Source: the human T2T-CHM13v2.0 reference genome, Homo sapiens. From it: 64,000 nucleotides of DNA. The stretch lies in the NCBI RefSeq assembly GCF_009914755.1, contig NC_060927.1. One strand, given 5' to 3'. The notes under the pieces were generated by a model. It saw only the letters and a list, made by a program, of their open reading frames with translations. It had not been told where the DNA came from and made no database searches. The translations under genes were made by a program, and so were the position numbers. Position 1 is the first letter of the stretch. Each line of letters opens with the position of its first letter. Shown here piece by piece: positions 1-63,931 of the stretch.

Positions 1-1320
1 TTTATATAATATATAAATATATAAAAATATATATTTTATATTATATATAAAATATATAAATATATATTTATATATATATAATATATATAAATATATATAT
101 TATATATATAAAATATATATAATAAAATATATATATAAAATATATATAAATATGTATAAAATATATATATAAAAATATATAAATATATAAAAATATATAT
201 TTTATATTATATATAAAAATATATATAAATATATATTTATTTATATATATTTATATAAATATATATTATATATATTTATATAAATATATATAATATATAT
301 TTATATAAATATATATTATATATATTTATATAAATATATATTATATATATTTATATAAATATATATTATATATATTTATATAAATATATATTATATATAT
401 TTATATAAATATATATTATATATATTTATATAAATATATATTATATATATTTATATAAATATATATTATATATATTTATATAAATATATATTATATATAT
501 TTATATAAATATATATTATATATATTTATATAAATATATATTATATATATTTATATAAATATATATTATATATATTTATATAAATATATATTATATATAT
601 TTAAATATAAATTTATAAATATATAAATATATTAAATATATAAATATATATTTAATATAAATTTAAATATATATTTATACATATAAATAAATATATATAT
701 TTATATATATTTATGTATATATATTTATATATATTTATATATATTTATATATTTATATATATATAAATTTATATAATATATATTATTAAATATATAATTT
801 ATATATATATTTAATAATATATATTATATATAATATATAATAATATATAAATATATATTATATTTATATATATAAAAATATATAAATATGTATTATATTT
901 ATATATAAAAATATATAAATATATAAATATATATTTACATCTATATATAAATTTATATATTTATATATAAATATAAATATATATTTATATATAAAGATAA
1001 ATATATATTTATATATAAATTTATATATTTCTATATATAAATATATATTTATATATAAATTTATATATTTATATATATAAATATATATTTATATATAAGT
1101 TTATATATTTATATATATTTATATATATAAATTTATATATTTATATATATTTATATATATAAATTTATATATTTATATAAATTTATATATTTATATATAA
1201 ATTTATATATTTATATAAATTTATATATTTATATATAAATTTATATATTTATATAAGTTTATATATTTATATATTTATATGTAAATTCATATATTCATAT
1301 TCATATTTATATTTATATTG
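1..1320. repeat. Extremely AT-rich (TA)n-derived low-complexity tract containing a 25-bp minisatellite (~14 copies, 251-600) and 18-20-bp sub-repeats (~1000-1270)
   Basis: Almost only A/T. Unit TTATATAAATATATATTATATATAT recurs with 25-bp period across 251-600. Confidence 0.95.
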
Positions 1321-1956
1321 AAACCCGATACCTGAAAATATAGTAGTATTTCTTAAAGTGACACAGAAATGAAATTTGATACCTGAAAACATAATGGTAT
1401 TTAAGAAGTTACAGAAGTAAACATATTCTGAAATTAGAAGCTTGATCCCCTCTAGTCTGTATTGTCACTATAATGGGTTCTAAGCTATGGTTGATCTTTT
1501 ATAAAATTGAAAATTTGTGGGATTAATGTGTTGATAACACTTAGACATATCTGTGACCTACATCTAATCTGAACTATTTCTATTCTCTTCTACATTATAC
1601 TTATCACCAGCAATCTTCTAAAAGTACATTCAAGAATATGCAATCATATTTATGCATTATTTGAGCTAGATAAATGTTAAGGAATCATATAATAAATTCA
1701 TATATCATATATATGTAATCAGGTAAAGAATAAAAGTTATAAGGTTTACTAATAAATCAATTGTTAGTAATTCTAAAATTAATTGTATAGAATTTGTCAA
1801 CATTTTTATATCAATACTTGTAAAATTCAAATTAAAAATATTTAATGGTGGCTAGCATTTTTTAAGTGTTTAACAGGCATTAGGTGTTTTAGCTCCATAA
1901 ACTTGTTTCATTTCTACGACCACACTATGAGACAATCAATTACTTTAAGTACTTTA

Positions 1957-2785
1957 CATGGCTGTTATCAAAAAGACAAAAAAATGTTGTTGAGAATATG
2001 GAAAAAGGGGAATGATCATACACTGTTGGTGGGAATGTAAAGTTGTTCAGCCACTGTGAAAGACAGTATGGAGGGTCCTCAGAAATGTATGAATAGAACT
2101 ACGATATGTTCCAGCGGTCTTATTGCTGTATATATATGAAAAGAAAGAAAAGCAACATATCAAAGAGATATCTGCACTCCTATGTTTACTGCAGCACTAT
2201 TTACAATAGTCAAGATACAGAAGCAACGTAAGTGTCCATCAATGGAAGAATGAATAAAGAAAATGTGATATGTATACACAATGGACTACAATTCAGTTGT
2301 GAAAAAGAAAGAAATCATGTCATTTGCAGCAACATGGATGAAACTGGAGGTCATTATATTAAGTGAAATAAGCCAAGCACAGAAAGACAATGATTGCATG
2401 TTCTCACTCACAGGTGGGAGCTAAATAAGTGCATGTCATGGAAGTGAGGATTAGAATGGTGGTTATCACAGGAAGGGCAGGGAAAGGGGGAGGAGAGGAT
2501 GAAGAGAGCTTGGTTTATGGATACAAAAATATAGTCAGATAGAAGGAATAAGTTCTAGTATTTAATCGTATGGGGGAGAATTCTAATTAACAATATATTG
2601 TTTATTATTATATGTTTCAAAATAGCTAGAAGAATTGCAATGTTCCCAACACAAAGATAAATGTTTGAGATAATGGATACCTTAATTACCCCAATTTGAT
2701 TATTACACATTGTGTACATATATCAATATAGTCCATGTACCCCACAAATATGTACAAATATTACATATCAATATAAATATTAAAA
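1957..2785 (+). mobile_element. L1 (L1MA-type) 3' fragment: end of ORF2 plus 3' UTR
   Basis: Typical L1 motifs: CATACACTGTTGGTGGGAATGTAAA, GATATCTGCACTCCTATGTTTACTGCAGCACTATTTACAATAG, GCAACATGGATGAAACTGGAGG, TTCTCACTCACAGGTGGGAGCTAA, A-rich end. Confidence 0.9.
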
Positions 2786-3149
2786 GTAAGCCATTAATAA
2801 AATTAATAAAATAAGCCATTAATAAAATATTTTGCAGGTGAGGAAATTGAAACTTAGAGAGATTGAAGATCTTGAACGGATCCCCCAGATCTTTTCAGGG
2901 GTGCTGGACATTGACTCCTACGATTTTCACATCATGTGGACCTTGAACATTCTAAACACAGAGCCAAGAAGGAAGTGTTGCTGATAGCTCATTAACATTT
3001 AGGACACCTACACAACACCAGTTCATGTTAGAAATATGCAAACAGGATCCAATCCTGGTTAAGTATTCAATGGAAGTGATTTATCAATCAATACGAGTAT
3101 CAAATAGGTAAAATGACAGCATATGAAGCTACATAAAGGTATGAGGAAG

Positions 3150-3520
3150 AATATCCAATAACACAGCACTAAATCTCATAAAATTTCACTCCAGATCAAA
3201 GCATCAGCCCACAAACATTACAGTTCACATGGGGCTGCTGTGTCAAAAGCAGCAGCAATTATGCACCTACCAGACATTGGAAGAAAACCCAGCGGGGAGC
3301 ACAAAAAATGGGTCTATTTGCTAAATCACAATTCACCCCAACCCAGGGGAGTCTAAGATAAAACCCACTAAATGGAGGAAACACAATAACATTGAATGTC
3401 TTCACCATTATCAAGGCCATTAAAGGGATGTGAAAAGCACAACAGCAAACCACATTCATTAATAGTAAACTAGCCTTCGAGAAGGCCATAAGAACTCAGT
3501 CTCATAAGTAACTAGATGTA
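3150..3520 (+). mobile_element. Ancient non-LTR (RTE/L4-like) reverse-transcriptase fragment
   Basis: Manual translation FTPTQGSLR*...LNVFTIIKAIKGM*KAQQQTTFINSKLAFEK resembles RT motifs Q.GFR...DHIFT.....FID..KAFD. Confidence 0.45.
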
Positions 3521-5639
3521 CCTTAATTTAATTTAATTGGAAGGAGAAGTAGAAAGTATAAAACATTAATCACCATCTCAGGAATGATTTATTTTGCACG
3601 TATGCCTGCAGGGACAAGGAAAACTGTTTACTTTTGGTAGTCTTCCAATGCTTGCTTCCTTCCGTCTTGATCATCAAGAGGCTGCATTCATACATCTTCT
3701 GTATGTCAATAGTCGACAGGTCCTGACATGGCCATCCTCTGCTTTTGTTTTTGTTTGTGCAGCCAGAATCCACTAACATTCATGGGCAAATGGTGGTGAG
3801 TCTGGGATTTGCGATAATGCTATTATGCATCAGATCTCTGGGCCAAAAAAACTGATCTACAGACTGTACCAGATGCTCATGCTATTATTCCCTGCCCCCA
3901 TTATATAGGAATGGGCGGGCCCCTTTCTAAGAAAACGTGCCTTTCATCAGAAATCTGGCATTCTGAATTTCCTGACTGACACAGGTCAGTACATATATTG
4001 TGTTCCAGGAGTTGAGGAAATCATTTTACCTTTAAGAGTGATTCAGTTGTTGATCTAAGATATTGAGAAAATATAACTTCCACAGTCAGCTTTTTAACCT
4101 ACTTAGGTCGATTTGTGTCAAGGTTTTTGAAAGTAAACAAAAACTTTCAAACATAAAACTAAATCGAGCTATCCAGGAAATAACAACAATTTCATCCATA
4201 CACAGACCACCATGTATACACCATACACTAGTAAAATACAGCATAGCAAACCTGAAGTCCTGGGGGAATGCAGAGATGAGCTTAGATGTAGTGGAATGGC
4301 ACTGATTTAACCTGTTTAAAAAAAAATCAGAAAATACCCCAAAATAAAACTTAATCATAGAAAATAATTTATGAAGAACTGGTATTAGGTAATTGCTTGC
4401 TACTCAATTTTCAAAATGACCAACTCCAAAATACAATTTTTTGCTTCAGCCTTGCTGAAACTCATGTTTTGGGTGGAAGTATGCAAATTACATGTATTCC
4501 ACAATGCACATTTTTAATTGTATACAAATAAAAATCTTTCCTCTTACAGCTTTTGAGGAGATTATAAACATATTGTAACTACCCTATTATTGCTCAAGAT
4601 GCTGTTACAACTCTCATGAGATATAACCTTTAGAGAATTTCCTCCTGAAAAACTTCAGCAGAGGTTATTTTCATTTTGTTGGGTTTGATGCTTTGGAAGA
4701 GGACAGAAGGAATTCTGAACCAAACCTGATATTAAATTGAGGATCAGGATAGATGGGACCATATAATTTATACTGATAGATCTGGTGTTTTGTACAGTTT
4801 GTAAAGTAGCTCTGAAAAAAATTTCCAGAATGAATTCTAATCAAGTTTTGAGTAACAGCAACCTTCATTGGAATGAGTTGTTAGTTCTCAGATATATGAA
4901 TTCATTTTTGAAGAACAGCACTCACTGAGAACCATTTTTCAGTATGTTTGCTAAAAACTCACTTACCTAAAAATTATTCAGTGTAGCAGGAAACCAAAAG
5001 TTAGACATTGAGCTGAGGCTGTCTGATACGAACTTTCAAACTTTCCCTAATCTAGAACTAGTGATGTTTTGCTCAGGGATGAAATCTGTTTCCTGAATTA
5101 ATTCATATTACCCTGGAGCTATGTGTTAGAAAGCAACAACATCTTTTGTGCTTATAGTTAGTAAACTTCAACTCAAATTAAAAGTAGTATCAGTGTGCCA
5201 AAAATCATTGCAGGATGCAATGATTGCTCATGAGAGTAAACCTAATCTTTTATTAAAATGATACTGAGCACTTTTTACTTCCCAGGAAAGGAAGTCAGGT
5301 TTATTCTCTGTTGAAAATAAGAAAAATATTGCTGCTTCCAAACTACAGGTAGGATTAAACACTTTAACAACACATCTAAAAAATGTTTACCCATTAAAAA
5401 ATTCTAAAGTGCTTTTTAGAGTAGCAGAACTAGAATACCCTAAAAAGCACAAATTGAGAGTTAACAACAGTGTCAAAGTAAGACACACAACCAGTATTTC
5501 TCTGGATAAGCTAATGCCCATTTTGCCAAAAATCTAAAAATTCTCACTTTCTTCACCCAAATGTATTCAATTTCCTAACAAGGATGTTTCATATAGCCTT
5601 TGTAAATTAGTGCTCTTGATCATCCTGTGGTACCTGTTA

Positions 5640-6180
5640 TTGGTGTCCTGTCCAGCTCTGGCTTCTTGTGGGAAAGCTTCTATGCGTGCTAGAAGCAAAA
5701 GTGGCAGCTGGACCAGTCAAGTCTGTGGAGTGCCTGGCTACTGTCCCTAGTGCTCGCTCAAGTCTCACAGGGATTGCTGACATTGCCATTGCTGACACCT
5801 TAAACTTCTTAAGGAGATTCTGTTGGGAGGAAGAAAACTTACTTTGCATTCTTTCTTTGGTAATGCCCCATTCTAGGCCTGGAGCAAGAGCACAAGGACT
5901 AGGCTGAACATCAATTTGAGTGACATTTTCAATGCTCAGCCTCACCTTGCCATCCTCATCCTGGATTCATAGCTTTGATCTTTTACTGATGAGTTACTTC
6001 TTCTCCCTGAAAGGACTTCTCAACGCCCTGGACAAATGTCCTCAATCTGAACCTTGGCTGTTCTGTACCACCAGTAATCTGGAGCAGACATGCCTAATCC
6101 TGGACAAAACAACCTGACCCTTGATATAGTGGTTTCCATTAATAAGCTAGCTCTTTACTTACCATGGCTTTGTAACATCA
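5640..6180. mobile_element. Possible old LTR-derived segment (family not determined)
   Basis: GC-richer island inside a putative intron with no recognisable protein in any frame; composition is suggestive only. Confidence 0.25.
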
Positions 6181-6269
6181 ACATTGTCACTACCTATGAA
6201 GATTTTTACTTTAACCACTTAAGGCTACAAGTCAGATAAATTGTAACAAAAATTTTATTATAATAGCAA

Positions 6270-6450
6270 ATGCTAACGTTTGTTTTCCTATTGTAGGCCC
6301 TACATGGTTCTACATTGCATTTTACATTGATTAACTCATTTAATCTTTGCAATAATTTTTTAACATGGGTACCATTATTTCCCTCATTTTACTAACGAAG
6401 ACACGGGCACACGGAAATTAAATAATGAGTTCAAGCTCACACTAACTAGA
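6270..6450 (-). mobile_element. MIR fragment
   Basis: ATTAACTCATTTAATCTT...CCATTATTTCCCTCATTTTAC...AAGCTCACACTAACTAG is the reverse of the MIR core. Confidence 0.65.
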
Positions 6451-6599
6451 TTCAGAGCCTCAGCGTCTGATGACTAGCAAGAAAGGGGAAAGAAGAGGAG
6501 TGAAGTTTGCCTTCATTTTATTTTGTTCTCTAGTGTTACTTTCAAAAGCAGATAAGTAGAATTAAAAAATATTTCTCTCTCATTCAAATGATAATGCTA

Positions 6600-6708
6600 A
6601 CCAGCACAAAGGTCATGCCTGTTTACTCTCTCCATGGTATCTGAGACACCTAGTCTACCTCTAGTACAAAACACACACTCTATAAATATTTGTGAGATGA
6701 ATGAATGA
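6600..6708 (+). mobile_element. L2 3' end
   Basis: Ends ATAAATATTTGTGAGATGAATGAATGA, the L2 tail. Confidence 0.6.
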
Positions 6709-7685
6709 TGTAAAAACTTTTAGTTGCTTTTTCTTATGTGACCTTCATTCTTTTTTTTATTTGTCTTGTTCTTGTCAACTCGTGTGAGCTTATTTTAATT
6801 TACTGTAAAGAACTGAAAAGTATCTGGATTAGAGTAATTTAATAATCCTTGTCAATAACTCACACAGCCTTCTGTGGCTGTCATTGCCAACAGCGGATTG
6901 GGGTTGGTTGGGTAATGAATCAATTAAGAGGGTATTTTCCTTATGGGATATCATCAACCAGACTCCTCTAAGGTGTGTAATTAGGGGCACATTGAAATGT
7001 GGAATCCATATCTAGCTGGATGAGTCATAATTTTCACTGCTTCTGTAAGGTTCTTTACTGTATACTATTTTTTAAATTATTTCTTGCAGTGAGAATAATT
7101 TCAAAAAATAATCTCTTGTATGTTGTCAAAGCTGACAACACTGATGGAACTATGTGAGTTACATGAAATATGCTCATAGGGTGAGTTGCAAAGCTACTTA
7201 ATGAGTAGTACATATGAAAGTCATGCTAGTCTGTGACTCCTCAACCAAACCATGGCCATGTGGTACAAACTGTATTTTAGTTCTGATCTCGGTATTTGGT
7301 TGATTATTAATCCTATAACTCAATCCTAAACTAATTAATCATAAAACTTGATTTGATTATTAATCCTATAACTTGTTAAATGTTTATACATTTTGGCCAT
7401 CTTCAACTTCTTGGTTCTGAGACATCATGCTAACCACGTTCATTAAAAGAATAATGAAATGGCTTCATTTTACACAGTTCTTACTTTTAAACACTTTGAT
7501 ACCACTTAAAATTTAAAGACAAATGTTAAGATGAATATGTTAAAACTTTAAGACAGTACTTATAATTATTCTTGGGATTTGACCTTGATAATTCACTTAT
7601 GCTTACTGTGCCCTCTTCTCCACTTGCAAATGAAGTGACAGTCTCGATCCACTTTCCAGAGGAGTCAACAAAAATGATTAATTGA

Positions 7686-8005
7686 GGCCAGGTGCAGTGG
7701 CTCATGCCTGTAATCTCAGCACTTTGGGAGGCCGAGGAGGGCGGATCACCTGAGGTCAGGAGTTAGAGACTAGCCTGGCCAACATGGTGAAACCCCATCT
7801 CTACTAAAAATACAAAAAAAAAAAAAAAAAAAAAAAAGAAAATCAGCCGAGTGTGGCGGCACACGCCTGTAATCCCAGCTACTCAGGAGGCTGAATCAGG
7901 AGAATTATTTGAACCCGGGAGGCAGATCTTGCAGTGAGCCAAGAATAAGCCATTGCACTCCAGCCTGGATGACAAGAGTGAAACTATGTCTCAAAAAAAA
8001 AAAAA
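7686..8005 (+). mobile_element. AluS element with expanded middle A-tract
   Basis: GGCCAGGTGCAGTGGCTCATGCCTGTAAT...polyA; TSD GATTAATTGA at 7676-7685 and 8006-8015. Confidence 0.97.
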
Positions 8006-9188
8006 GATTAATTGAGCCTTATAGAGTACCTTAAAATATATAATTGCTTTGGATATAGGCAAAGCAAATAACAAATTCTAAAGACATGTTTAAGCATAAC
8101 TGGATGAAAAACTCAGGATGCAAATAGGGACCTGCTAATGCTGAACAAGGCAGAACATATTTTTGTGTCAGTTTTACTATTTTAAGTAAAGACTATTTAA
8201 TTATAAAAATCAATTTAATCAGCAATAGAGTGATTTTACTTTAGTGTCTAATTGTAGGGGTGCTCCATAGCACAATTATAACCTCCTGTTGTGCTCAGCT
8301 CAGGACCAACTGTAATAAAATGTGACGATAGAGCAGTTCCCTTGATTAAAGCACTTTAATAAATAAATGATAGCTAGATGAATTTACCAGCTAGGAGGGA
8401 AAAGGAGCAGATGAAACTGTAAATCCTATAAGAACAGCTTTATTATTCAAAAAAATTTTATGGATTATTTAAATTGTGCTCTCTAATTACAATGGCTGAT
8501 AATGTTTCATTTTGTTTAATAGCATTTGTTTTGATTGTATCATTATCACAATTAACAAGTTGCTCCAATATCTACCTTACAGTATCTTCCCAGTAATGTG
8601 AAGGATAATTGGATCTATGTGAATGTGCTTTTCTTTTCTGTCCCTAGGAGGAGATCATAATAGTCAGAAATCTGGAGAAGTTCCACTTGTAGAAAATTTA
8701 TATTTCATAAGTACCTTACCCCACTCAAAACATTTAAGATTTATCTATTAACAGTTTAATATTACACGTCCACCCATTCTAATTGCTCCCTCACAAATTT
8801 TAATGATTACACTTTTCTTTGGCAGTATAGCAGTAGAGATAAATTTTCAATTTTTTCTTCTTTTTTGGTAAATCCACTGCAGTGTAGAGATAATTTTAAA
8901 AGATTTCAGTCTTCTCACATACAAGAATGTTGGGGAAACCTCTGAGCTGACCTGGGATCCCAGTCTTCCAGCTCTGGTTTCAGAGGTTATAAATGGGGAC
9001 AGCCCTCACTTTCTCTCTTGCTTTGGATGGTCCCTTGGAGCTGATATTTATTTGTGCAACTTTCCTTGGTTGATTTCAGGGTGAAAAAAAAAGTCACTGT
9101 AACAGGAGTCAAGAAGGGGCTTAGAACCTAGTCATGTGAATATTTTCAAGTTTTTCTTGCCTTGTGTTTTTTCATCAAATGAGGGTAG

Positions 9189-9232
9189 GTGTGTGCATGT
9201 GTGTGTGTGCGTGTGTGTGTGTGTATGTGTGT
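9189..9232. repeat. Interrupted (TG)n microsatellite
   Basis: Direct reading. Confidence 0.9.
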
Positions 9233-9329
9233 ACTGTAATTATATTATAATCACGACCAAGTAAAACATCCTTCACCAGCTTTCATAGAGTAACTGCAGT
9301 TCCTGTAGAAGGGAAAACGGTGTTGTGCT

Positions 9330-9510
9330 ATAGTAAAAAGGATATGGGCTTGGTATTGAGAACATTTGAGTTAAAATTCCAGCTGTGGATTCACAGATAA
9401 TTAACTTTTATTTGCTTTGCAAATTCACTAAACCTATCTGAATTTGTTTTCTCATCTGTAAAATGGGAATAATACAAACCTCAGAGGGTTGTTGTAAATA
9501 TTAAGTATAT
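9330..9510 (+). mobile_element. MIR
   Basis: TTTTCTCATCTGTAAAATGGGAATAATACAAACCTCAGAGGGTTGTTGT core. Confidence 0.8.
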
Positions 9511-9937
9511 AAAGTATATGGAATATTATATGCTTGTAATAAGTTGTGTTCTCTTCTGCTTCTTTGTATTCCATTGTGGTGGCTTACCACAAACACAGGA
9601 ATATGAAAAAAAATAACATTGCAGCAGAACTATCAAAATAAGAATAATACAAAGGAAGATAAAACAATTAGGCTAAAGAAATGCCTAATCTTTTTTACTG
9701 TGACTAATTGTAGTACTTAGCTATCAGGTTCTTAATGGACAAGGGGACAAGAGAAACACACTAGGTTATATTATTGCCACTAGCTGAGAAAAAAAAAGAC
9801 AGATTTTTTTTTTCTGGACCAACATATTTAAAATTCAGTATTAAGTACTTTTACTTTTATTCTGTATCTCAGATTTCATTAAGTTTTTACTTAAAAGTTG
9901 AAGATGGATATTCCTGTGATACAAATATGGCCACCTC

Positions 9938-10254
9938 TTTTTTTTTTTTTTTTTCCGAGATAGAGTCTCGCTCTGTCACCCAGGCTGGAGTGCGGTGAGT
10001 GGCTCGATCTCAGCTCACTGCAACCTCCGCCTCCTGGTTTCAAGCGATTCTTGTGCCTCAGCCTCCTGAGTAGTTTGGACTACCGGCGTGTACCACCAGG
10101 CCTGGCTATTTTTTTTTTTTTTTTTTACATTTTTAGTAGAGACGGGGTTTTGCCATGTTGTCCAGGCTGGTCTCAAACTCCTGAGCTCAGGCAATCTGCT
10201 CGCCTCAGCCTCCCAAAGTGCTAGGATTACAGGCGTGAGCCACTGCACTGTCCG
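9938..10254 (-). mobile_element. Alu (AluS/J type)
   Basis: polyT then GAGTCTCGCTCTGTCACCCAGGCTGGAGTGC...GTGAGCCACTG; flanking CACCTCTTT duplication. Confidence 0.96.
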
Positions 10255-10416
10255 CACCTCTTTCTTTAAAAAAGGCACTGCTAGCAAATAAAGGGAATCT
10301 TGGTAGAAGATGTTTGCAAGGTTTGCACTGAAGCTTATTCTATTGTAGAAACGATAGAAAAAGAAAAGCTGACTAAATGAAGAACATATGACCAGCTGAT
10401 GCTTGTTTTCTTTCAG

Positions 10417-10607
10417 TTCAGTGAATTCGGGACTCAGTAACTCCATTAGTGACTGCACCCACATAGACCTTTTTCTAAAAGTCTCCACATTTGTCCAGTT
10501 GTTTCCTCCTTGGTCCAATGCCAACGCTCCGTCAATGCTATTGCCACCCCCATTCTGCCTCTTCCAAAAGCCTGCATCAGTCATGGAGTCCTCTTCACCT
10601 GAAATAA
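10417..10607 (+). other. Exon with intact splice sites: relic cadherin LamG1-end/EGF exon, candidate distal non-coding exon of ZPLD1
   Basis: Acceptor TTGTTTTCTTTCAG| and donor AA|GTAAGT; translation [12 protein letters not shown] then (frameshifts) CFLLG-QCQRSVN...FCLF-KP. Confidence 0.6.
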
Positions 10608-11474
10608 GTAAGTGTGAAGACTTTTGATTTTGACAGCACTCACCCACAACTGGTACTACAATTATAAAGAAAGGTGTAATGTTTTAAACTTTCTGACATA
10701 CATTAATCTTTGGATTTTTCCAATGAGTAATTGGAATTCCTGGAGATTTTCAGGAATTCTACAAAACATAAATAATCCTTGAAATACATTCCTTGTAGTA
10801 TTTATGAATATCTAAACACATTATTACAAAGATAAGTGAAATGTTACATTTTATATATTTACAAAGGGCTGTAGCTTATGGTGCATATTTAAATACTTGT
10901 GTATACACCAGTGAAGACTACTGAGTTATAGCTAAATAATGTAATATTCTGAACCTTAACAAAGTTAACAGCACTACACAGAATCATGTGCCAAAATCGC
11001 CAATGTTAAGATTTATTTTGCTGTCTAAACTTATTTCTTGGGACATCACTCACAGGATTTGTTTGAATTATGCTATGCATTAAATTTATTAATATAAATT
11101 TTAGTTGCAAGCATGATTTAGTTTTAGTAGTAGACAGGGCCATGAGCATACACTTAAAACAGGGCAATAGCTACAAGCAAGACACCTGATTAGATCATGA
11201 AACTTCTCTCCTCCTTCCTCTTGTCTGGTTCCCAGAAATGTCAACTTCAACCTCTCTGCTCTCCACTGGACTAGTAAACTTGACTAGTGGGTTTCTTCGA
11301 ACCGGTAGTGTCTCTGTGTTGATTGTTATGTTTTTATCTCTTGCAAGAAATCATCACATCTCATTTTCTCCACTCCTTGACTGATTTTTTTTCTCCCAAT
11401 GCAAAACACATAAATTACCCAAGAAATGCTGGAAAGAGATTCCTCATGATACTAGGAAATAGCTTCATTTAGGA

Positions 11475-11640
11475 CAGTAGTTTTCAACCCTTGGTGTCAC
11501 TTCAGATTCACCTGGATACTTTTAAAAAATACCTATGCCTGGGCCTCCACCCCCAGAAAATTGATGTAAGTGGGGTCTTTTTTTTTTTTTTTTTCCAAAT
11601 ACAGGTGGCTCTGTTGTGTAGCCATGTTTGAGAACTTTTC
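11475..11640. mobile_element. MER5A-like hAT-Charlie DNA element
   Basis: CAGTAGTTTTCAACCCTTGG...CACCTGGATACTTTTAAAAAATACCTATGCCTGGGCCTCCACCCC...TTTGAGAAC. Confidence 0.75.
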
Positions 11641-13111
11641 CTCCAGGAATGCCCCAGTGGGTTACTCTCCATTCTGTAAATTCTACATTTCTAAGAATAC
11701 ACTTAAAAGCGTTTTTTAATTCTTTCATCACAGGCAAATTTATTTTTGTATTCTTCTAAATAGTTTGTAAGTTTTTATGGGAAAATTAATTTACTTTTGA
11801 AAATGTATTCTTAACCAGTAATTTCCAAATTTGATTAGTAATTTCAGAACCTAAGAGGTTGTTTGTGGCTTCCCAGATATTTTGAAAATAAATAAGATAA
11901 AATGTTATCTAAAAATAGTGTATGTGTCTCATCACCCCAAAGTTAGGCTTCTGAAGCAAGTGAATATATTAAAGACAAATTGAAATCATAATATTTAGGA
12001 GGTTAGTATATTAAATATTAGTACATTTATTATTACATTTTGGTAGTTATAGGTTTTACTCAAACATATTTTTAGTTATTAAAGAAATATATATGCCAAT
12101 TTAGAAAGTCAAGTCATGAACAATTATTTATAATAAAAACAAAACTTACCAACCCTAGACTCCCTCTCCAGAAGTATCCATTTTTAATCCTTTTGGCTGT
12201 CCCAGTTGTTATCTTAGCATTTTTAATAAGATGTTTATGCTGTTATTTCTTGATGGAATATTTTTTGATGTCTATTTCTTTTCTGCTATGATAGCAAAGA
12301 TTTAGCTATCTATTCTCCTCCATAATTTCCTCCATCCTTCCATTAAATTACATTATTATTTTTCAGTTGTGTACTGGTTACTTCTGATTTTAATTATATA
12401 GCTCCATCATTCTTTCCTGTAAATTAACTGTGAGCTGGGTCTCTTGACTCTTCACTTTATAAGATGAGGATGTGACTGCCTGTGGCCTTCTCTTCCACTG
12501 TCCCAAGTCTCCCCAAATCTACCATTTTTACTTTTGCATCATCACAGTTGATAAAAACACATTCCATTTTACATGTCTTCTGTATTTTACCTATAGATTA
12601 GTTTTAAAATGTGATAGCTAATATATAGTTTTCACATTCATCTGACTATAGAGAATTACACATAGTAAAGCCTATCAGACATTTGTATATTGAGATGCTC
12701 TCCCATTTCTTCACCTCTTTTGTATTCTGTCATCATTTAAAAAAATTTATATTAGGTATTTTTTCTTGACTTTCTTTGTCAGAGACCACTACACTCAATC
12801 ATGGGCCCTTTTTCATACTCTTAACAATCAGGACTGGCTCTTGGATCAAAGTTGAAATCCTGGGACTTCCTTCTAGGTTAAGAATCATTTTCTCTCATAT
12901 TTCAAAGGCATTATTGTATTGCTTTTTAGCATCCAGTATTTATGGTTAAGTCTTCTGTTGGTCATTTTTTCTGACCTGGTAAATTTTAATCCCTTCTGAA
13001 ACTTTTTGAATTTTCTTTTTTATATTTGGCACTACAAAATTTTACAATAAAGTGTCTAGTTGTAATTTTTCATTAATTATCCTAAGCACTCACCCACTAT
13101 TTCAATCTTAA

Positions 13112-13448
<337 letters not shown>

Positions 13449-13718
13449 TCAGTTCTGAGAAATTCTTTCTCGTTTTTTCTGTCGTGATTTTCACATCTTT
13501 TTCCACTCTGCTCTGATCATCCGAACTACTGTAGGTTAGTTATTGGACCTCCTGGAGGATATACTGAGAGAGTATACTCTCTCTTGTATATTTTCTCTCA
13601 TATTTGTAATTTTTGGCAATGTTTTACAATCTTTATCTTCAATTATTTTATAACTTATTATTTGGGCTATAATTTTTAAAACGTATTAAGCTATATTATT
13701 GGATTTTCTCTCCTGGAG

Positions 13719-13740
13719 TCTCTCTCTCTCTCTCTCTCTC

Positions 13741-13772
<32 letters not shown>
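13719..13772. repeat. Compound (TC)n(TG)n microsatellite
   Basis: Direct reading. Confidence 0.95.
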
Positions 13773-13773
<1 letters not shown>

Positions 13774-16608
13774 CTTTCTGTTATATGTATATAATACTAA
13801 TTTATCTCTGAGGATGTTATTTTCATTATTTTAATGTTCTCCTCTACTCCCTAAATTATGTCAGTTTCCTCCGGAATGACATTTTCCTGTTTACCACTAG
13901 TTTCTCTATTCCGTGGTGCAGTCTTGCCTCCAATACCTTATGATGTTTTGCTACTTAATATATTTAAAAATAAAGCAATATTAAGCACATCAGTAGTTCT
14001 CTGCACAGTGGTTTTTGATAGGTTTATTTTAGAGCAATTGGGCAGGCATGTGACTATTACAACTGTTAAAAATATCACAGTTAAAAAATATTTCTGGGGG
14101 GGTGAGGAATCAGGAAATCCTTTAGAGAAGAGACTTCTGATTTTTTTGTCCAAGTGATAGATGTCTGGGTGCTACAATGTGATACAGAAAGGCAAGAGTT
14201 TGACTTTTAATCAATATTCCTATTTTTCACTCAATTTTTCTCTTGTGTTGGTGTTAAGAAACCCCAACCTTCACCCTCAGTTGTATAACTTCAGTTTAAC
14301 TCTTCTGGGCTGTTTCTTCTTTATCCCCACATCATCATTTTTGTTGTACTATCTTTCCTTTGTTGTTCACTTCAAGGATGTGGATAATGTTTGCACACTC
14401 AAATGCCCATATGGCCCAGGCAGGTAATTAAGTAAATGAGGAAGGCTGGTCCTTAAAAAATAAAAATGGACTAAGTATGCCCTGGTGCTGGAGAGAGTGC
14501 TACTACTTGTTTCAACTATGATTTATTCTTTTACAATTAATTTGGTGAAATTTTCAGAGGCAAAAAAGATCAACACATATGGTTGACATGTCATCTTGAC
14601 TCAGGAGTTGTGCTAAGTGCTAAACTCTAAAATGAATTCATTACTTCTTAGTGGGAGGGCTTTAAGTCATTACTTTCTGTCAGACTCCTCTAAGCTACCT
14701 TAAATGAACAAAGGTTCTAGGTAAAAGTATGTATTTGCCATGCACAGGCAACCTCAAGGCATACCAAAAATGAAACATTTATTTTTTATTAAAAAAACTT
14801 CAATGTAGAAGGCCCTGAATAATCTAAAAGGCAGTAATTCTACCTTGATTTTGTAGTACCATGGCAGCATGTTTCATGTTTCTTTCTCATTTGGACCCTA
14901 GATATAAATTTAGGGCTGAATATTGAGACATAACTCAGAGAAAGTGATTTTGTATGGGTCTAGGTTAACGTGGTTCATTTATATAGCTTTCTGGTTGTAT
15001 AGCTTTATCCAAAGATAGGGCTGAGTTATAATATATAACCTGAGGATCCGATGGATGGCATATTCTTAGATGGTCACTTTTAATATCATTTCTCTTTTCA
15101 GGCCATTAGCTAATGCAACAGAGAGTTAATGATCTTATTCTCAGATGGATCCTGAGTGTCATGGTTTTCTGATGCTGATTGAAAGAAGAATTACTAAGAA
15201 TTATTTGCTTTGGATATGTGATGGTGGTAGGGTTGATAGCATATTGGATATTGAAAAAATATAAGTGTATTTTTGGACTGGAGGAAGACCTTTGAAGGGA
15301 TACTTGTAAAGTAGGCTAAAAAGAAATACTTAATGTGTTACACCCTCCTTATGATTTTGGTGAGTTTATCAGAGTTAATAACCAGATATAACTTGATGGA
15401 GGCAAGAGAGTTAGGTCTCAGTAGTTTCTGTGAGATTTCTCCAAGGCACCTCAAATAAACGTACAATCTATATTAAAACCATGTGCTTTACTCAAAAAGA
15501 TAATTTTAGGCCCTAACAAATAAACACACAGCGTGCTTTCTACTCTAACTAACTTCAAAGCAGCTTCCCAACTTTTACCCCCAACCGGATTTCTACCCTT
15601 AAGTTTCTCCGTTTTAGAATCTGTCTTAGTACCACCATACTATCAATGGAAATATGAAAACAGCATGTAACCACATTTTATACTTCTATCTGCGTTCACA
15701 AGATTTACTGAGAAATAGGGCATATGTGCTTTAAAATCCATAAAAACATATCCTAAAATATTTTATTCAGTTAAATCTGGCTTACTCAGGTATTTAGAGC
15801 AAAGAGTATGTTTTGAAGGTATTGCCTCACCCTATCAATTCAACATGATGCAGATGCCTCTATTAAGCCTGTCAGTTCCTCTACAGAACAGAGAAAATCA
15901 AATCAAAGCTCGACAAACATGAAGTGCATGGTTTGCTGCTGTGAGTCTTCACAATGATTATAGATCTCTAAACAACTGATAAAGTTGTGGCATTTGAAAT
16001 TGATTGCTGAGATGAGCAGTGGTGCACACCACAGCCTGTCTTTTCCTTGCCACACGTTGCTTAACTGGCCACTCATAGCCATGTGTCTAGACCAATATCC
16101 CAACATGTGAGAGATTATTGGAATGTTGCAAACTGAAACAATTTCAAGGTAGGTTTAAGCTGCTGACATTGGAAAGCACCTCAAATAATTAGCATGTAAG
16201 CCCAGTGATATTCTAGGCTCCCAAGAAAAAAAAAATGTCAGAAAAGGACCCCATGTCCTTTTTAAGTTATAGACTAAGTAAATTTTTAGTCTCCTTAGAA
16301 AATTATCCAGAAAGGGAAATGATATGTTTAACACATGCTTTGCTTTTGGTATGCTGATATATTTTGGCTTTCTTAACTCATTTTATACAACCCAAAGAGC
16401 CGACCTCCTGCCAGTTTCTTTGGAGAGAGAGCTTATGGATTCTAGCTTCTAAACTTAAATTCTGCAACTAAATACATCACACTTGCAGAAAGTTTTATGA
16501 AGTATTTAAAAAGATTCTCTAAGGCTAAACTATAAAAGTATACTTTATCTACTAAACTCTGATCAAACCTGCCCCAGACTAAAAGCAAAGAGAGAAAACT
16601 TAATTTTT

Positions 16609-17458: not shown

Positions 17459-17514
17459 GCACTTAGTATAAACCGATGCAACTGGTTTTGTGCTGGAAGA
17501 CAAGCTTAGCAACG
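17459..17514 (+). other. ZPLD1: Candidate 56-nt non-coding (5' UTR) exon of a long ZPLD1 transcript
   Basis: Strong acceptor CCCTCTTCTTTTAG| and donor ACG|GTAAGA; gene assignment is inference. Confidence 0.5.
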
Positions 17515-42360: not shown

Positions 42361-43344
42361 TTGCCTCTATCCCAGAGGTAATTGAGAACGTAAATGTTGT
42401 TAAAGTACCCTGAGCCAATAGAATAAAATGAAATCTTATAAAGGTGTAGGCCAGTGGAATTACCGTTAGCGCAATGTGCTTTTTTCAGGGTAGCCATCAT
42501 TATTAAATGGCAGACGGAGTAATATAAATCAATACAAAAGGCTTCAATCTTCCACACAGTTATCCCTAAGCACAGTAGTGCATTTCAGTACTAAAATAGT
42601 AGCAAAGTATTTCACTACTTCACTACGGCCAAAACATCTTGAAAAGTGTTCGCTGTGGTGCCTGTGTCGCAGGTTCCCACTCTTCTTTCCAAAGAGGAAT
42701 CATAATAGCTTATGGAGTGGAATGCTTAGATGACTTCCAAATTGGGTCCCAGGCTCCAAAGGCTGGTGGAGGTGGGAGGTGCTTGGAGGCCCCTAAACAA
42801 AAGCCGAGGTTATGAAGCAGTTTCAGTGTCTAGCTTCCTCTTGACAATTGGGTCCTGTTGGGTTTGCTTGCATTGTCAGCCTCTTAGTTATTATTATTCC
42901 AATCAAACAAGTTTTCACGGTGATATTCCATATCCCGTTTTCATCACTGCATGAAATGTAGTATTGAAAGGGCCCGGCATCTTTCACGAAGCACAACAGG
43001 ACATTGATAACTGTGCAGATTAGCTCCCCTTCCAATCCCAGGCCTTGTTTCTTACTTTATGATTTTTTTTCCAGCAGGCTTTCCCTCATCAGGCTGATGA
43101 TAGCTCACTTCACATATACCACTCACGACATCTGTACAGTATAAAATACAAGATCAAACGCAGGTAGGGGAAAAAAAGAGAAAGGGAATGAAATGAAAAC
43201 AAAGAGAAATAGAAGGAAACAAAGGTCCCTAAAAGATGAGCTCAGATTTCATGGTGGTGATGATTAGTTTTGTAAAACCTTGTGAGACCTGTGGAAGCAT
43301 TTGCTTGTCTAAAATTCAGTTTTTTCTTTCTTTTTTTTTTAAAG

Positions 43345-43492
43345 ACATTTCAAAAAGAGCAGCTCTTCTCTCATTTGAAGCCTTGACTCTTTTCTGAAAA
43401 AGTTTGGTAAGGTCAGGCATTTGAACACTCAGTCACATGCGGCAGAACCTAGCACATGGAGGACAGCTGACTCCACAGAACCAGGGATTTGG
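43345..43492 (+). other. ZPLD1: Candidate 148-nt non-coding (5' UTR) exon of a long ZPLD1 transcript
   Basis: Long polypyrimidine tract TTTTTCTTTCTTTTTTTTTTAAAG| and consensus donor GG|GTAAGT; gene assignment is inference. Confidence 0.55.

Positions 43493-63709: not shown

Positions 63710-63931
<222 letters not shown>

What the first reader, a model, noticed from the sequence alone, without database searches (positions are those of the whole stretch)
10417..10607. Cadherin EGF exon with perfect splice sites: possible exaptation as a ZPLD1 5' UTR exon
Translation [16 protein letters not shown] parallels DN-cadherin PGLSRNSVAGCPQTE (recalled). With frameshifts it continues SSCFLLG-QCQRSVN and FCLF-KPA-SHGV, an EGF pattern (CWEHGNCVGS...CHCRPGWTG). 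The coding frame is destroyed, yet both splice sites remain near consensus. Inference: the exon is still spliced into a long transcript running 10607 > 17459-17514 > 43345-43492 > 63765, so the dead cadherin transcription unit would feed ZPLD1. This agrees with my unverified recollection that ZPLD1 has long multi-exon 5' UTR isoforms.
Basis: partly seen in the sequence, partly recalled or inferred. Interest (0 to 1): 0.75.

Follow-up and report, generated by a model that had tools for sequence, protein, structure and literature searches.

The report
Known noncoding first exon of ZPLD1
This stretch is an already annotated, untranslated leader exon of the human ZPLD1 gene, and its supposed descent from a dead cadherin gene rests on a resemblance no better than chance.

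Summary
The sequence features are there. A strong acceptor-like site ends at 10416, a TAA|GTAAGT donor follows 10607, and the quoted peptides occur in the three forward frames. The hub's RefSeq table already lists 10434-10607 as the 5'-most exon of a ZPLD1 transcript. It also lists 43345-43492 and 63765 (ATG 63773), so the 5' UTR reading is known annotation; 17459-17514 is not annotated.

The cadherin/EGF origin is not supported.
- Pfam, PDB and 1.84 billion protein representatives gave no hit.
- The recalled DN-cadherin peptide is real (CADN_DROME about 2575-2589). However, 62% of 300 random segments of the window match DN-cadherin as well as the exon does.
- With frameshifts allowed, the exon ranks in the top 4% against fly and between 4% and 68% against eight other type III cadherins.
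- Profiles and tblastn with 25 type III cadherins over 264 kb found nothing above a reversed-sequence control.

The annotated start sits exactly on an initiator-like TCAGT, as does a second ZPLD1 start in the window. This favours a true start site. Verdict: an ordinary alternative leader exon.

The parts
10434..10607 (+). Untranslated alternative first exon of ZPLD1 (174 nt)
   Evidence: Hub RefSeq table (exon of 'other transcripts'; the gene span starts at 10434). No open frame runs from it into the ZPLD1 ATG. Single copy in the genome at BLAST sensitivity.
10608..10613 (+). 5' splice site GTAAGT after TAA
   Evidence: Its use follows from the annotated exon end at 10607.
10369..10416 (+). 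Acceptor-like site: CTGAC (10369), CTGAT (10396), pyrimidine tract, CAG ending at 10416. Its use is unproven.
   Evidence: It lies 17 nt upstream of the annotated start and is not part of any RefSeq exon in the hub table.
10413..10438 (+). Cluster of three TCAGT initiator-like motifs (10413, 10418, 10434). The annotated start 10434 is the first base of the third.
   Evidence: TCAGT occurs 98 times on the + strand (1 per 653 nt). A second annotated ZPLD1 start, 43315, lies 1 nt before a TCAGT at 43316.
43345..43492 (+). Second untranslated exon (acceptor ttttaaag|A, donor TGG|GTAAGT); a longer form starts at 43315
   Evidence: Hub RefSeq table.
63765..63878 (+). First coding exon of ZPLD1, ATG at 63773
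   Evidence: Hub RefSeq table.
17459..17514 (+). ACG|GTAAGA), not annotated
   Evidence: Searches show the motifs. It is absent from the hub RefSeq table, and no RNA evidence is available here.

Best explanation
Window 10434-10607 is a noncoding leader exon made from a distal, TATA-less, CpG-poor, initiator-type alternative promoter of ZPLD1, about 53 kb upstream of the start codon. Transcription starts at or near the TCAGT at 10434. The strong donor after 10607 is spliced to 43345-43492 and then to 63765-63878, giving a 330-nt 5' UTR.

That UTR carries five upstream ATGs, three of them in this exon. One upstream reading frame from the second exon overlaps the ZPLD1 ATG out of frame, so this isoform is probably translated less efficiently than isoforms from the proximal promoter. 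The exon has no detectable protein-coding ancestry.

Shown: the motifs, the annotation, and the lack of homology. Inferred: promoter type, splicing order within one transcript, and the translational effect.
For: - The hub RefSeq table lists 10434-10607, 43345-43492 / 43315-43492 and 63765 (coding from 63773) as ZPLD1 exons.
- The junction motifs fit.
- The annotated start coincides with TCAGT at 10434. A second annotated start (43315) sits 1 nt before another TCAGT, although the motif occurs only once per 653 nt.
- The region is CpG-poor (2 CpG in the exon, observed/expected 0.25).
- The spliced leader is 330 nt with 5 upstream ATGs, none giving an N-terminal extension of ZPLD1.
- No protein homology in any frame: Pfam 0 families at E<=10, PDB 0, 0 of 1.84 billion representatives at E<=0.001.
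- No homology to type III cadherins by tblastn, Smith-Waterman or profile search.
Against: - I saw no RNA data (CAGE, junction reads, long reads). Exon use rests on the annotation table alone, and that table does not say which exons join in which transcript.
- A near-ideal branch point, pyrimidine tract and AG end 17 nt upstream of the annotated start. The exon could therefore also, or instead, be an internal exon of a longer transcript whose 5' end is missing from RefSeq.
- The TCAGT coincidence is suggestive, not proof of a start site.
- The translational effect of the upstream ATGs is inference only.
Confidence: 0.8

Rival explanations
1. The exon is, at least in some transcripts, an internal exon 10417-10607 that uses the strong acceptor. 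It would be spliced from a promoter far upstream, possibly the + strand lncRNA LOC107986105 at about -77 kb. The RefSeq start at 10434 would then be a truncated cDNA end or a second, internal start site.
For: Branch-point-like CTGAT lies 17 nt before the AG. The next 15 bases include 13 pyrimidines, there is no intervening AG, and the site ends in CAG|T. The hub table places a + strand lncRNA upstream. My own unverified recollection is that Ensembl draws ZPLD1 much longer than RefSeq does.
Against: No listed RefSeq transcript uses 10417. The annotated start falls exactly on an initiator-like TCAGT, as does another ZPLD1 start. Acceptor-like sites of this crude quality occur 43 times on the + strand of the window.
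Confidence: 0.25
2. One reading: the exon is the decayed LamG-end/EGF exon of a type III (DN-cadherin-like) classical cadherin lost in mammals, and its splice sites survive because ZPLD1 took it over as a 5' UTR exon.
For: - Type III cadherins exist in non-mammalian vertebrates and not in mammals (PMC3216324, passages read). Tetrapod and fish members were retrieved here.
- The recalled DN-cadherin strings are genuine.
- With frameshifts allowed, the exon scores 38 against DN-cadherin 2561-2640, versus a null of 24.6 (sd 5.7); 4% of 300 random segments do as well.
- The corresponding figures are 4% of 200 for axolotl and 7% of 200 for turtle.
Against: - A 4% rank, picked after the fact, means roughly a dozen equally good 191-nt segments per strand of this window.
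- Against the other six homologous segments the rank is 12.5-68%.
- In single frames, 62% of 300 random segments match DN-cadherin as well. The 16-mer's best match in DN-cadherin is at a different site, and 21% of 759 random 16-mers equal it.
- Pfam EGF models find nothing in any frame, and there is no cysteine-codon excess.
- Profiles from 24 mixed and 15 vertebrate type III cadherins find nothing above the reversed-sequence control in the window or 200 kb upstream.
- tblastn gives no colinear series and no hit on the exon.
- No cadherin cytoplasmic-domain match anywhere on this chromosome, out of 23 genome matches.
- The only marginal EGF-like hit lies 110 kb upstream. It matches a later part of the protein, which is the wrong order for this model.
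Confidence: 0.02
3. The exon and its promoter derive from an old, diverged transposable element that NCBI's file does not mask, a common origin for alternative first exons.
For: Only 7% of the window is masked in NCBI's file (hub note), so old repeats are probably unmarked. An Alu abuts the region at 9929-10252.
Against: The 421 nt around the exon match only themselves in the whole genome. A word-7 blastn of 10253-10900 against the window gives only chance hits of 31 nt or less. Both tests are blind to repeats more than about 30% diverged, and no repeat library was available.
Confidence: 0.1

Closest known systems
Alternative untranslated first exons from distal promoters of human genes (here the RefSeq ZPLD1 transcript that starts at window 10434)
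   Same: - It is annotated as the 5'-most exon.
- It is noncoding.
- It has a strong GTAAGT donor.
- It is spliced over tens of kb to a common exon that carries the ATG.
- Several alternative starts exist for one gene (10434, 43315, 60300 in the hub table).
   Different: Nothing differs in kind. The one oddity is a well-formed acceptor-like site 17 nt upstream of the annotated start.
Type III classical cadherins (DN-cadherin / CADN_DROME, chicken Hz-cadherin, vertebrate 'neural-cadherin')
   Same: Only a short, gapped, multi-frame resemblance to the LamG1-end/EGF stretch (DN-cadherin about 2575-2625).
   Different: - The similarity is not significant in any search.
- There is no cysteine pattern in one frame.
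- No neighbouring cadherin, LamG, transmembrane or cytoplasmic remains were found.
- The resemblance is not stronger to tetrapod than to fly sequences.
EGF-like domain (Pfam PF00008 and relatives)
   Same: The exon has scattered cysteine codons: 8 across three frames.
   Different: No frame holds six cysteines. No Pfam EGF model matches at E<=10. The cysteine-codon count is average for this window.

Membership tests
EGF-like domain | Match to an EGF profile (six cysteines in the canonical spacing within one reading frame) | tested here: not met
   Pfam scan of the three forward frames at E<=10 found 0 families. The cysteines are split 2/3/3 over the three frames. The cysteine-codon count of 8 compares with a window mean of 6.58.
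Type III classical cadherin relic (pseudogene exon) | Sequence similarity to type III cadherins above chance | tested here: not met
   Smith-Waterman of the exon frames against 5 type III cadherins: 15-65% of 300 random segments score as well. The frameshift-tolerant rank is 4% to 68% over 9 targets. The exon is not reported by either profile search: at E<=1000 and at E<=50.
Type III classical cadherin relic (pseudogene exon) | Colinear series of further exon remains on the same strand (EC repeats upstream; LamG2, EGF, transmembrane and cytoplasmic parts downstream) | tested here: not met
   - tblastn of 10 queries against the window.
- tblastn of 15 vertebrate queries against 264 kb.
- HMM searches.

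Best real hits were E 3.7-9 against reversed controls of E 0.71-3.2. PF01049 found 23 genome matches, none on this chromosome.
Type III classical cadherin relic (pseudogene exon) | Conserved synteny: the live gene lies next to ZPLD1 in non-mammalian vertebrates | not testable with these tools
   No vertebrate genome other than this one is held. The passages read in PMC3216324 and PMC5473995 give no chromosomal position.
Alternative noncoding first exon of ZPLD1 | Annotated as an exon of a ZPLD1 transcript, with a donor joined to downstream ZPLD1 exons | tested here: met
   Hub RefSeq table (10434-10607; the gene span starts at 10434). The donor and the downstream acceptors were verified in the sequence. 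This rests on annotation, not on RNA data seen here.
Alternative noncoding first exon of ZPLD1 | Lies wholly upstream of the start codon, with no in-frame extension | tested here: met
   In the joined 10434-10607 + 43345-43492 + 63765-63878, the ATG is at position 331. All five upstream ATGs end in stops or are out of frame.
Alternative noncoding first exon of ZPLD1 | Genuine transcription start (capped 5' ends) at about 10434 | tested here: inconclusive
   The initiator-like TCAGT lies exactly at 10434 and another lies at 43316, next to a second annotated start; the motif occurs once per 653 nt. No CAGE or RACE data are available, and an acceptor-like site 17 nt upstream leaves internal-exon use open.

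The most novel reading that the evidence does not exclude
A type III cadherin gene once lay upstream of ZPLD1 in the mammalian ancestor and has decayed beyond the reach of profile searches. On this reading, 10417-10607 (acceptor included) is its one surviving exon, kept because ZPLD1 transcripts use it. The marginal EGF/transmembrane-like match 110 kb upstream would be another trace.
Probability: 0.02. Interest if true: 0.6.

Novelty: already known. Interest (0 to 1): 0.07.

Why it matters
It matters little. The exon and its link to ZPLD1 are already in RefSeq. The part that would have been interesting, a fossil of the classical cadherin type that mammals lost being reused by a neighbouring gene, fails every test available here. 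Two points have modest use. ZPLD1 has at least three alternative starts in this window, and this distal leader carries five upstream ATGs that may damp translation. The case also shows that an accurately recalled peptide can still yield a chance-level match.

Tried and rejected
- **Six-frame Pfam scan of the whole window.** It failed twice: once because of stop codons, and once because the read-through with X was too long to print. I then scanned stop-free + strand ORFs of at least 30 aa, but only the first 148 of 591 (window 17-15667). None hit Cadherin, EGF or Laminin G. I dropped the other 443 once real type III cadherins were in hand.
- **Finding type III cadherins.** A human CDH11 last exon as seed with 'longer' returned only CDH11-like proteins of 290-2000 aa. 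Seeding instead with a 1167-aa hit, restricted to its cytoplasmic domain, worked.
- **Whole-genome search with a turtle type III cadherin.** It scored only 16 of 344 candidates and returned FAT, CELSR and protocadherin exons. On this chromosome the only hits were at 48.69 Mb. It is too coarse to detect relics.
- **Marginal hit at window -99714 to -99565 (+ strand).** It scores 31.2-33.5 bits (E 0.02-0.11) against the last EGF/transmembrane region of 7 of the 15 vertebrate queries, all fish.
- **Single hit at window -19560 to -19880 (- strand).** It scores 36.6 bits against one salmonid protein only and has four stops. I treated it as an oddity of that predicted protein.
- **Literature.**
  - 'ZPLD1' + 'cadherin' listed 15 of 28 papers, none relevant by title or abstract.
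  - 'type III cadherin' + mammals + chicken found 0.
  - A loosely set search returned 18,016 papers and was useless.
  - Gianfrancesco 2008 on ZPLD1 disruption is not held.
  - The mouse Zpld1 paper says nothing on leader exons in the passages read.

Full report
**What is in the sequence**

The window is human chr3 (T2T), just upstream of and into ZPLD1. At 10369-10416 the + strand reads CTGAC ... CTGAT gcttgttttctttcAG, and 10417 follows. The exon-like stretch ends ...GAAATAA at 10607 and is followed by GTAAGT.

The peptide [16 protein letters not shown] is encoded at 10421-10468, in a 75-codon open frame at 10400-10627. The proposed EGF pattern therefore needs repeated frame changes within 191 nt.

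**What is already known**

The RefSeq table added by the hub lists 10434-10607 as an exon of a ZPLD1 transcript and starts the gene span at 10434. It also lists 43345-43492, a longer form 43315-43492, and the first coding exon 63765-63878 (coding from 63773).

I checked the junction motifs of all of these in the sequence. Its extra exon 17459-17514 has plausible splice motifs but is not annotated. The exon is annotated as a first exon, starting 17 nt downstream of the acceptor-like AG.

**Are the splice sites more than chance?**

I applied a crude rule: at least 12 of 14 pyrimidines, then YAG, with no AG nearby, paired with GTAAGT 50-300 nt downstream. By this rule the window has 43 acceptor-like sites and 17 GTAAGT on the + strand, forming 3 pairs including this one. 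The - strand has 2 pairs. The pair alone is not remarkable. What makes the donor real is the annotation.

**Testing the EGF/cadherin claim on the exon itself**

- Pfam found no family in any of the three forward frames at E<=10.
- phmmer against all PDB chains found nothing at E<=10.
- HMMER of the 75-residue frame against 1.84 billion representative proteins found nothing at E<=0.001.
- Cysteine codons counted in any frame number 8, against a mean of 6.58 (sd 3.05) for 191-nt windows here; 35.5% of such windows have at least 8.

**Testing against real type III cadherins**

Passages of PMC3216324 confirm that type III classical cadherins, such as chicken Hz-cadherin, exist in non-mammalian vertebrates. 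A lost mammalian gene is therefore a fair idea. To obtain sequences I proceeded in three steps:
1. I took a human CDH11 last exon from the window's own genome.
2. I used a long hit, restricted to its cytoplasmic domain, to pull proteins longer than 2044 residues (289 hits among 513 candidates, 120 listed, including CADN_DROME as P0232).
3. I used the amphioxus member to retrieve vertebrate ones (347 hits among 6893 candidates, 120 listed, including turtle, geckos, axolotl, gar, bichir, sturgeons and teleosts).

P0232 holds the peptide at about 2575-2589, at the end of a laminin-G region, and the EGF-like CWEHGNCVGS...CHCRPGWTG just after it.

The similarity, however, is not above background.
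- **Single-frame Smith-Waterman.** The exon's three frames against P0232 score at most 33. The null from 300 random 191-nt + strand segments is 34.0 (sd 4.0), and 62% of those segments do as well. For four other type III cadherins the figure is 15-65%.
- **The 16-mer.** Its best match in DN-cadherin (score 27) lies at another site, and 21% of 759 random stop-free 16-mers equal it.
- **Frameshift-tolerant alignment.** It gives 38 against DN-cadherin 2561-2640, with a null of 24.6 (sd 5.7); 4% of 300 segments reach that score.

It was found after the fact, and it implies roughly a dozen equal matches per strand of this window. Against the homologous stretches of eight other proteins the ranks (200 random segments each) are:

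| Target | Rank |
|---|---|
| axolotl | 4% |
| turtle | 7% |
| amphioxus | 12.5% |
| bichir | 21.5% |
| gar | 22.5% |
| zebrafish-type | 23% |
| gecko | 25% |
| acorn worm | 68% |

. A relic of a vertebrate gene should resemble tetrapod sequences clearly better than it resembles fly; it does not.

**Testing for the rest of the supposed dead gene**

- tblastn of 10 type III cadherins against the window gave a best hit of 30.8 bits, on the - strand at 39.3 kb. The reversed-window control reached 26.6 bits. There was no colinear series.
- A profile from 24 type III cadherins (2978 positions), searched over 3630 stop-free six-frame fragments, gave a best E of 9. The control gave 0.71. The exon's forward frames were not reported even at E<=1000.
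- I then fetched the 200 kb upstream. tblastn of 15 vertebrate type III cadherins over the 264 kb gave 53 HSPs at E<=10 and none on the exon. A vertebrate profile over 14,547 fragments gave a best E of 3.7, against 3.2 in the control.
- The cadherin cytoplasmic-domain model PF01049 found 23 places in the genome, none on this chromosome.
- A whole-genome search with the turtle protein returned only FAT, CELSR and protocadherin exons. It scored just 16 of 344 candidates, so it says little about weak relics.
- 148 of the 591 + strand ORFs of at least 30 aa (window 17-15667) had no Cadherin, EGF or Laminin G match in Pfam.

**One marginal signal**

At window -99714 to -99565 (+ strand), seven fish proteins match with their last EGF/transmembrane stretch at 31.2-33.5 bits, E 0.02-0.11. 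I do not count it as evidence, for four reasons:
- The queries are not independent of one another.
- The profile gives only E 13 there.
- Tetrapod sequences match worse than fish.
That is the wrong order for a + strand gene.

**What the exon most likely is**

The RefSeq start 10434 is the first base of a TCAGT, the core of the classical initiator motif (motif name recalled). A second annotated ZPLD1 start, 43315, lies 1 nt before another TCAGT. The motif occurs 98 times on the + strand, once per 653 nt. Three TCAGT copies cluster at 10413-10438. The region has no CpG island: 2 CpG in the exon, observed/expected 0.25.

This favours a genuine initiator-type start site of a distal alternative promoter. 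The hub table shows at least two other starts, at 43315 and 60300.

Joining 10434-10607, 43345-43492 and 63765-63878 gives a 330-nt leader with five upstream ATGs. Three are in this exon. None extends ZPLD1, and one frame from the second exon overlaps the ATG out of frame. A damping effect on translation is my inference.

The exon's DNA is single copy in the genome at BLAST sensitivity and matches nothing else in the window. An old transposon origin cannot be excluded without a repeat library.

**What stays open**

The well-formed acceptor 17 nt upstream leaves room for use as an internal exon of longer transcripts. I give that about one chance in four, not exclusive of the main reading. No RNA data, other vertebrate genomes or repeat libraries were available. 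Gianfrancesco 2008, the paper on ZPLD1 disruption, is not held, so neither exon usage nor synteny could be checked directly.

**Verdict**

This is an ordinary, already annotated untranslated leader exon of ZPLD1. The cadherin ancestry is a chance resemblance built on an accurately remembered peptide.

Noticed in passing
window 10015-10683, - strand: This is the longest stop-free frame in the whole window: 222 codons, against 134 for the next on that strand and 170 on the + strand. It runs antisense through the exon into a sense-oriented Alu. Pfam gives only sub-threshold chance hits (E 0.035 and 0.069).
   Followed up: partly
upstream of the window, -99765 to -99565 (+ strand; G000:C3:104990235-104990435, loci L012/L013): A stop-free stretch with an EGF-like C..C.CP.G..G..C pattern followed by a hydrophobic run. 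It matches the last EGF/transmembrane region of 7 fish type III cadherins at 31.2-33.5 bits (E 0.02-0.11). The vertebrate profile gives only E 13, and tetrapod sequences match worse. It is probably chance.
   Followed up: partly
window 10413-10438 and 43316: Two of the three annotated ZPLD1 first-exon starts in the window (10434 and 43315; not 60300) fall on or 1 nt before a TCAGT initiator-like motif. Three such motifs cluster within 26 nt at the distal start.
   Followed up: partly
It is not in the RefSeq table. If included, it would add one more upstream ATG.
   Followed up: partly
upstream of the window, -19560 to -19880 (- strand; locus L021): A 109-residue tblastn alignment (36.6 bits, E 0.002, four stops) to residues 1523-1622 of one salmonid type III cadherin prediction only. 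None of the other 14 vertebrate queries hit there.
   Followed up: no
G000:C8:95946904-95947032 (+ strand): A cadherin cytoplasmic-domain match (PF01049, 39.1 bits) with one internal TAA. It is the only one of the 23 genome matches that carries a stop, so it may be a cadherin pseudogene or a divergent family member.
   Followed up: no
window 1-1324: A long AT-rich simple or tandem repeat at the start of the window (masked in NCBI's file). It translates as runs of Y, I and K.
   Followed up: no
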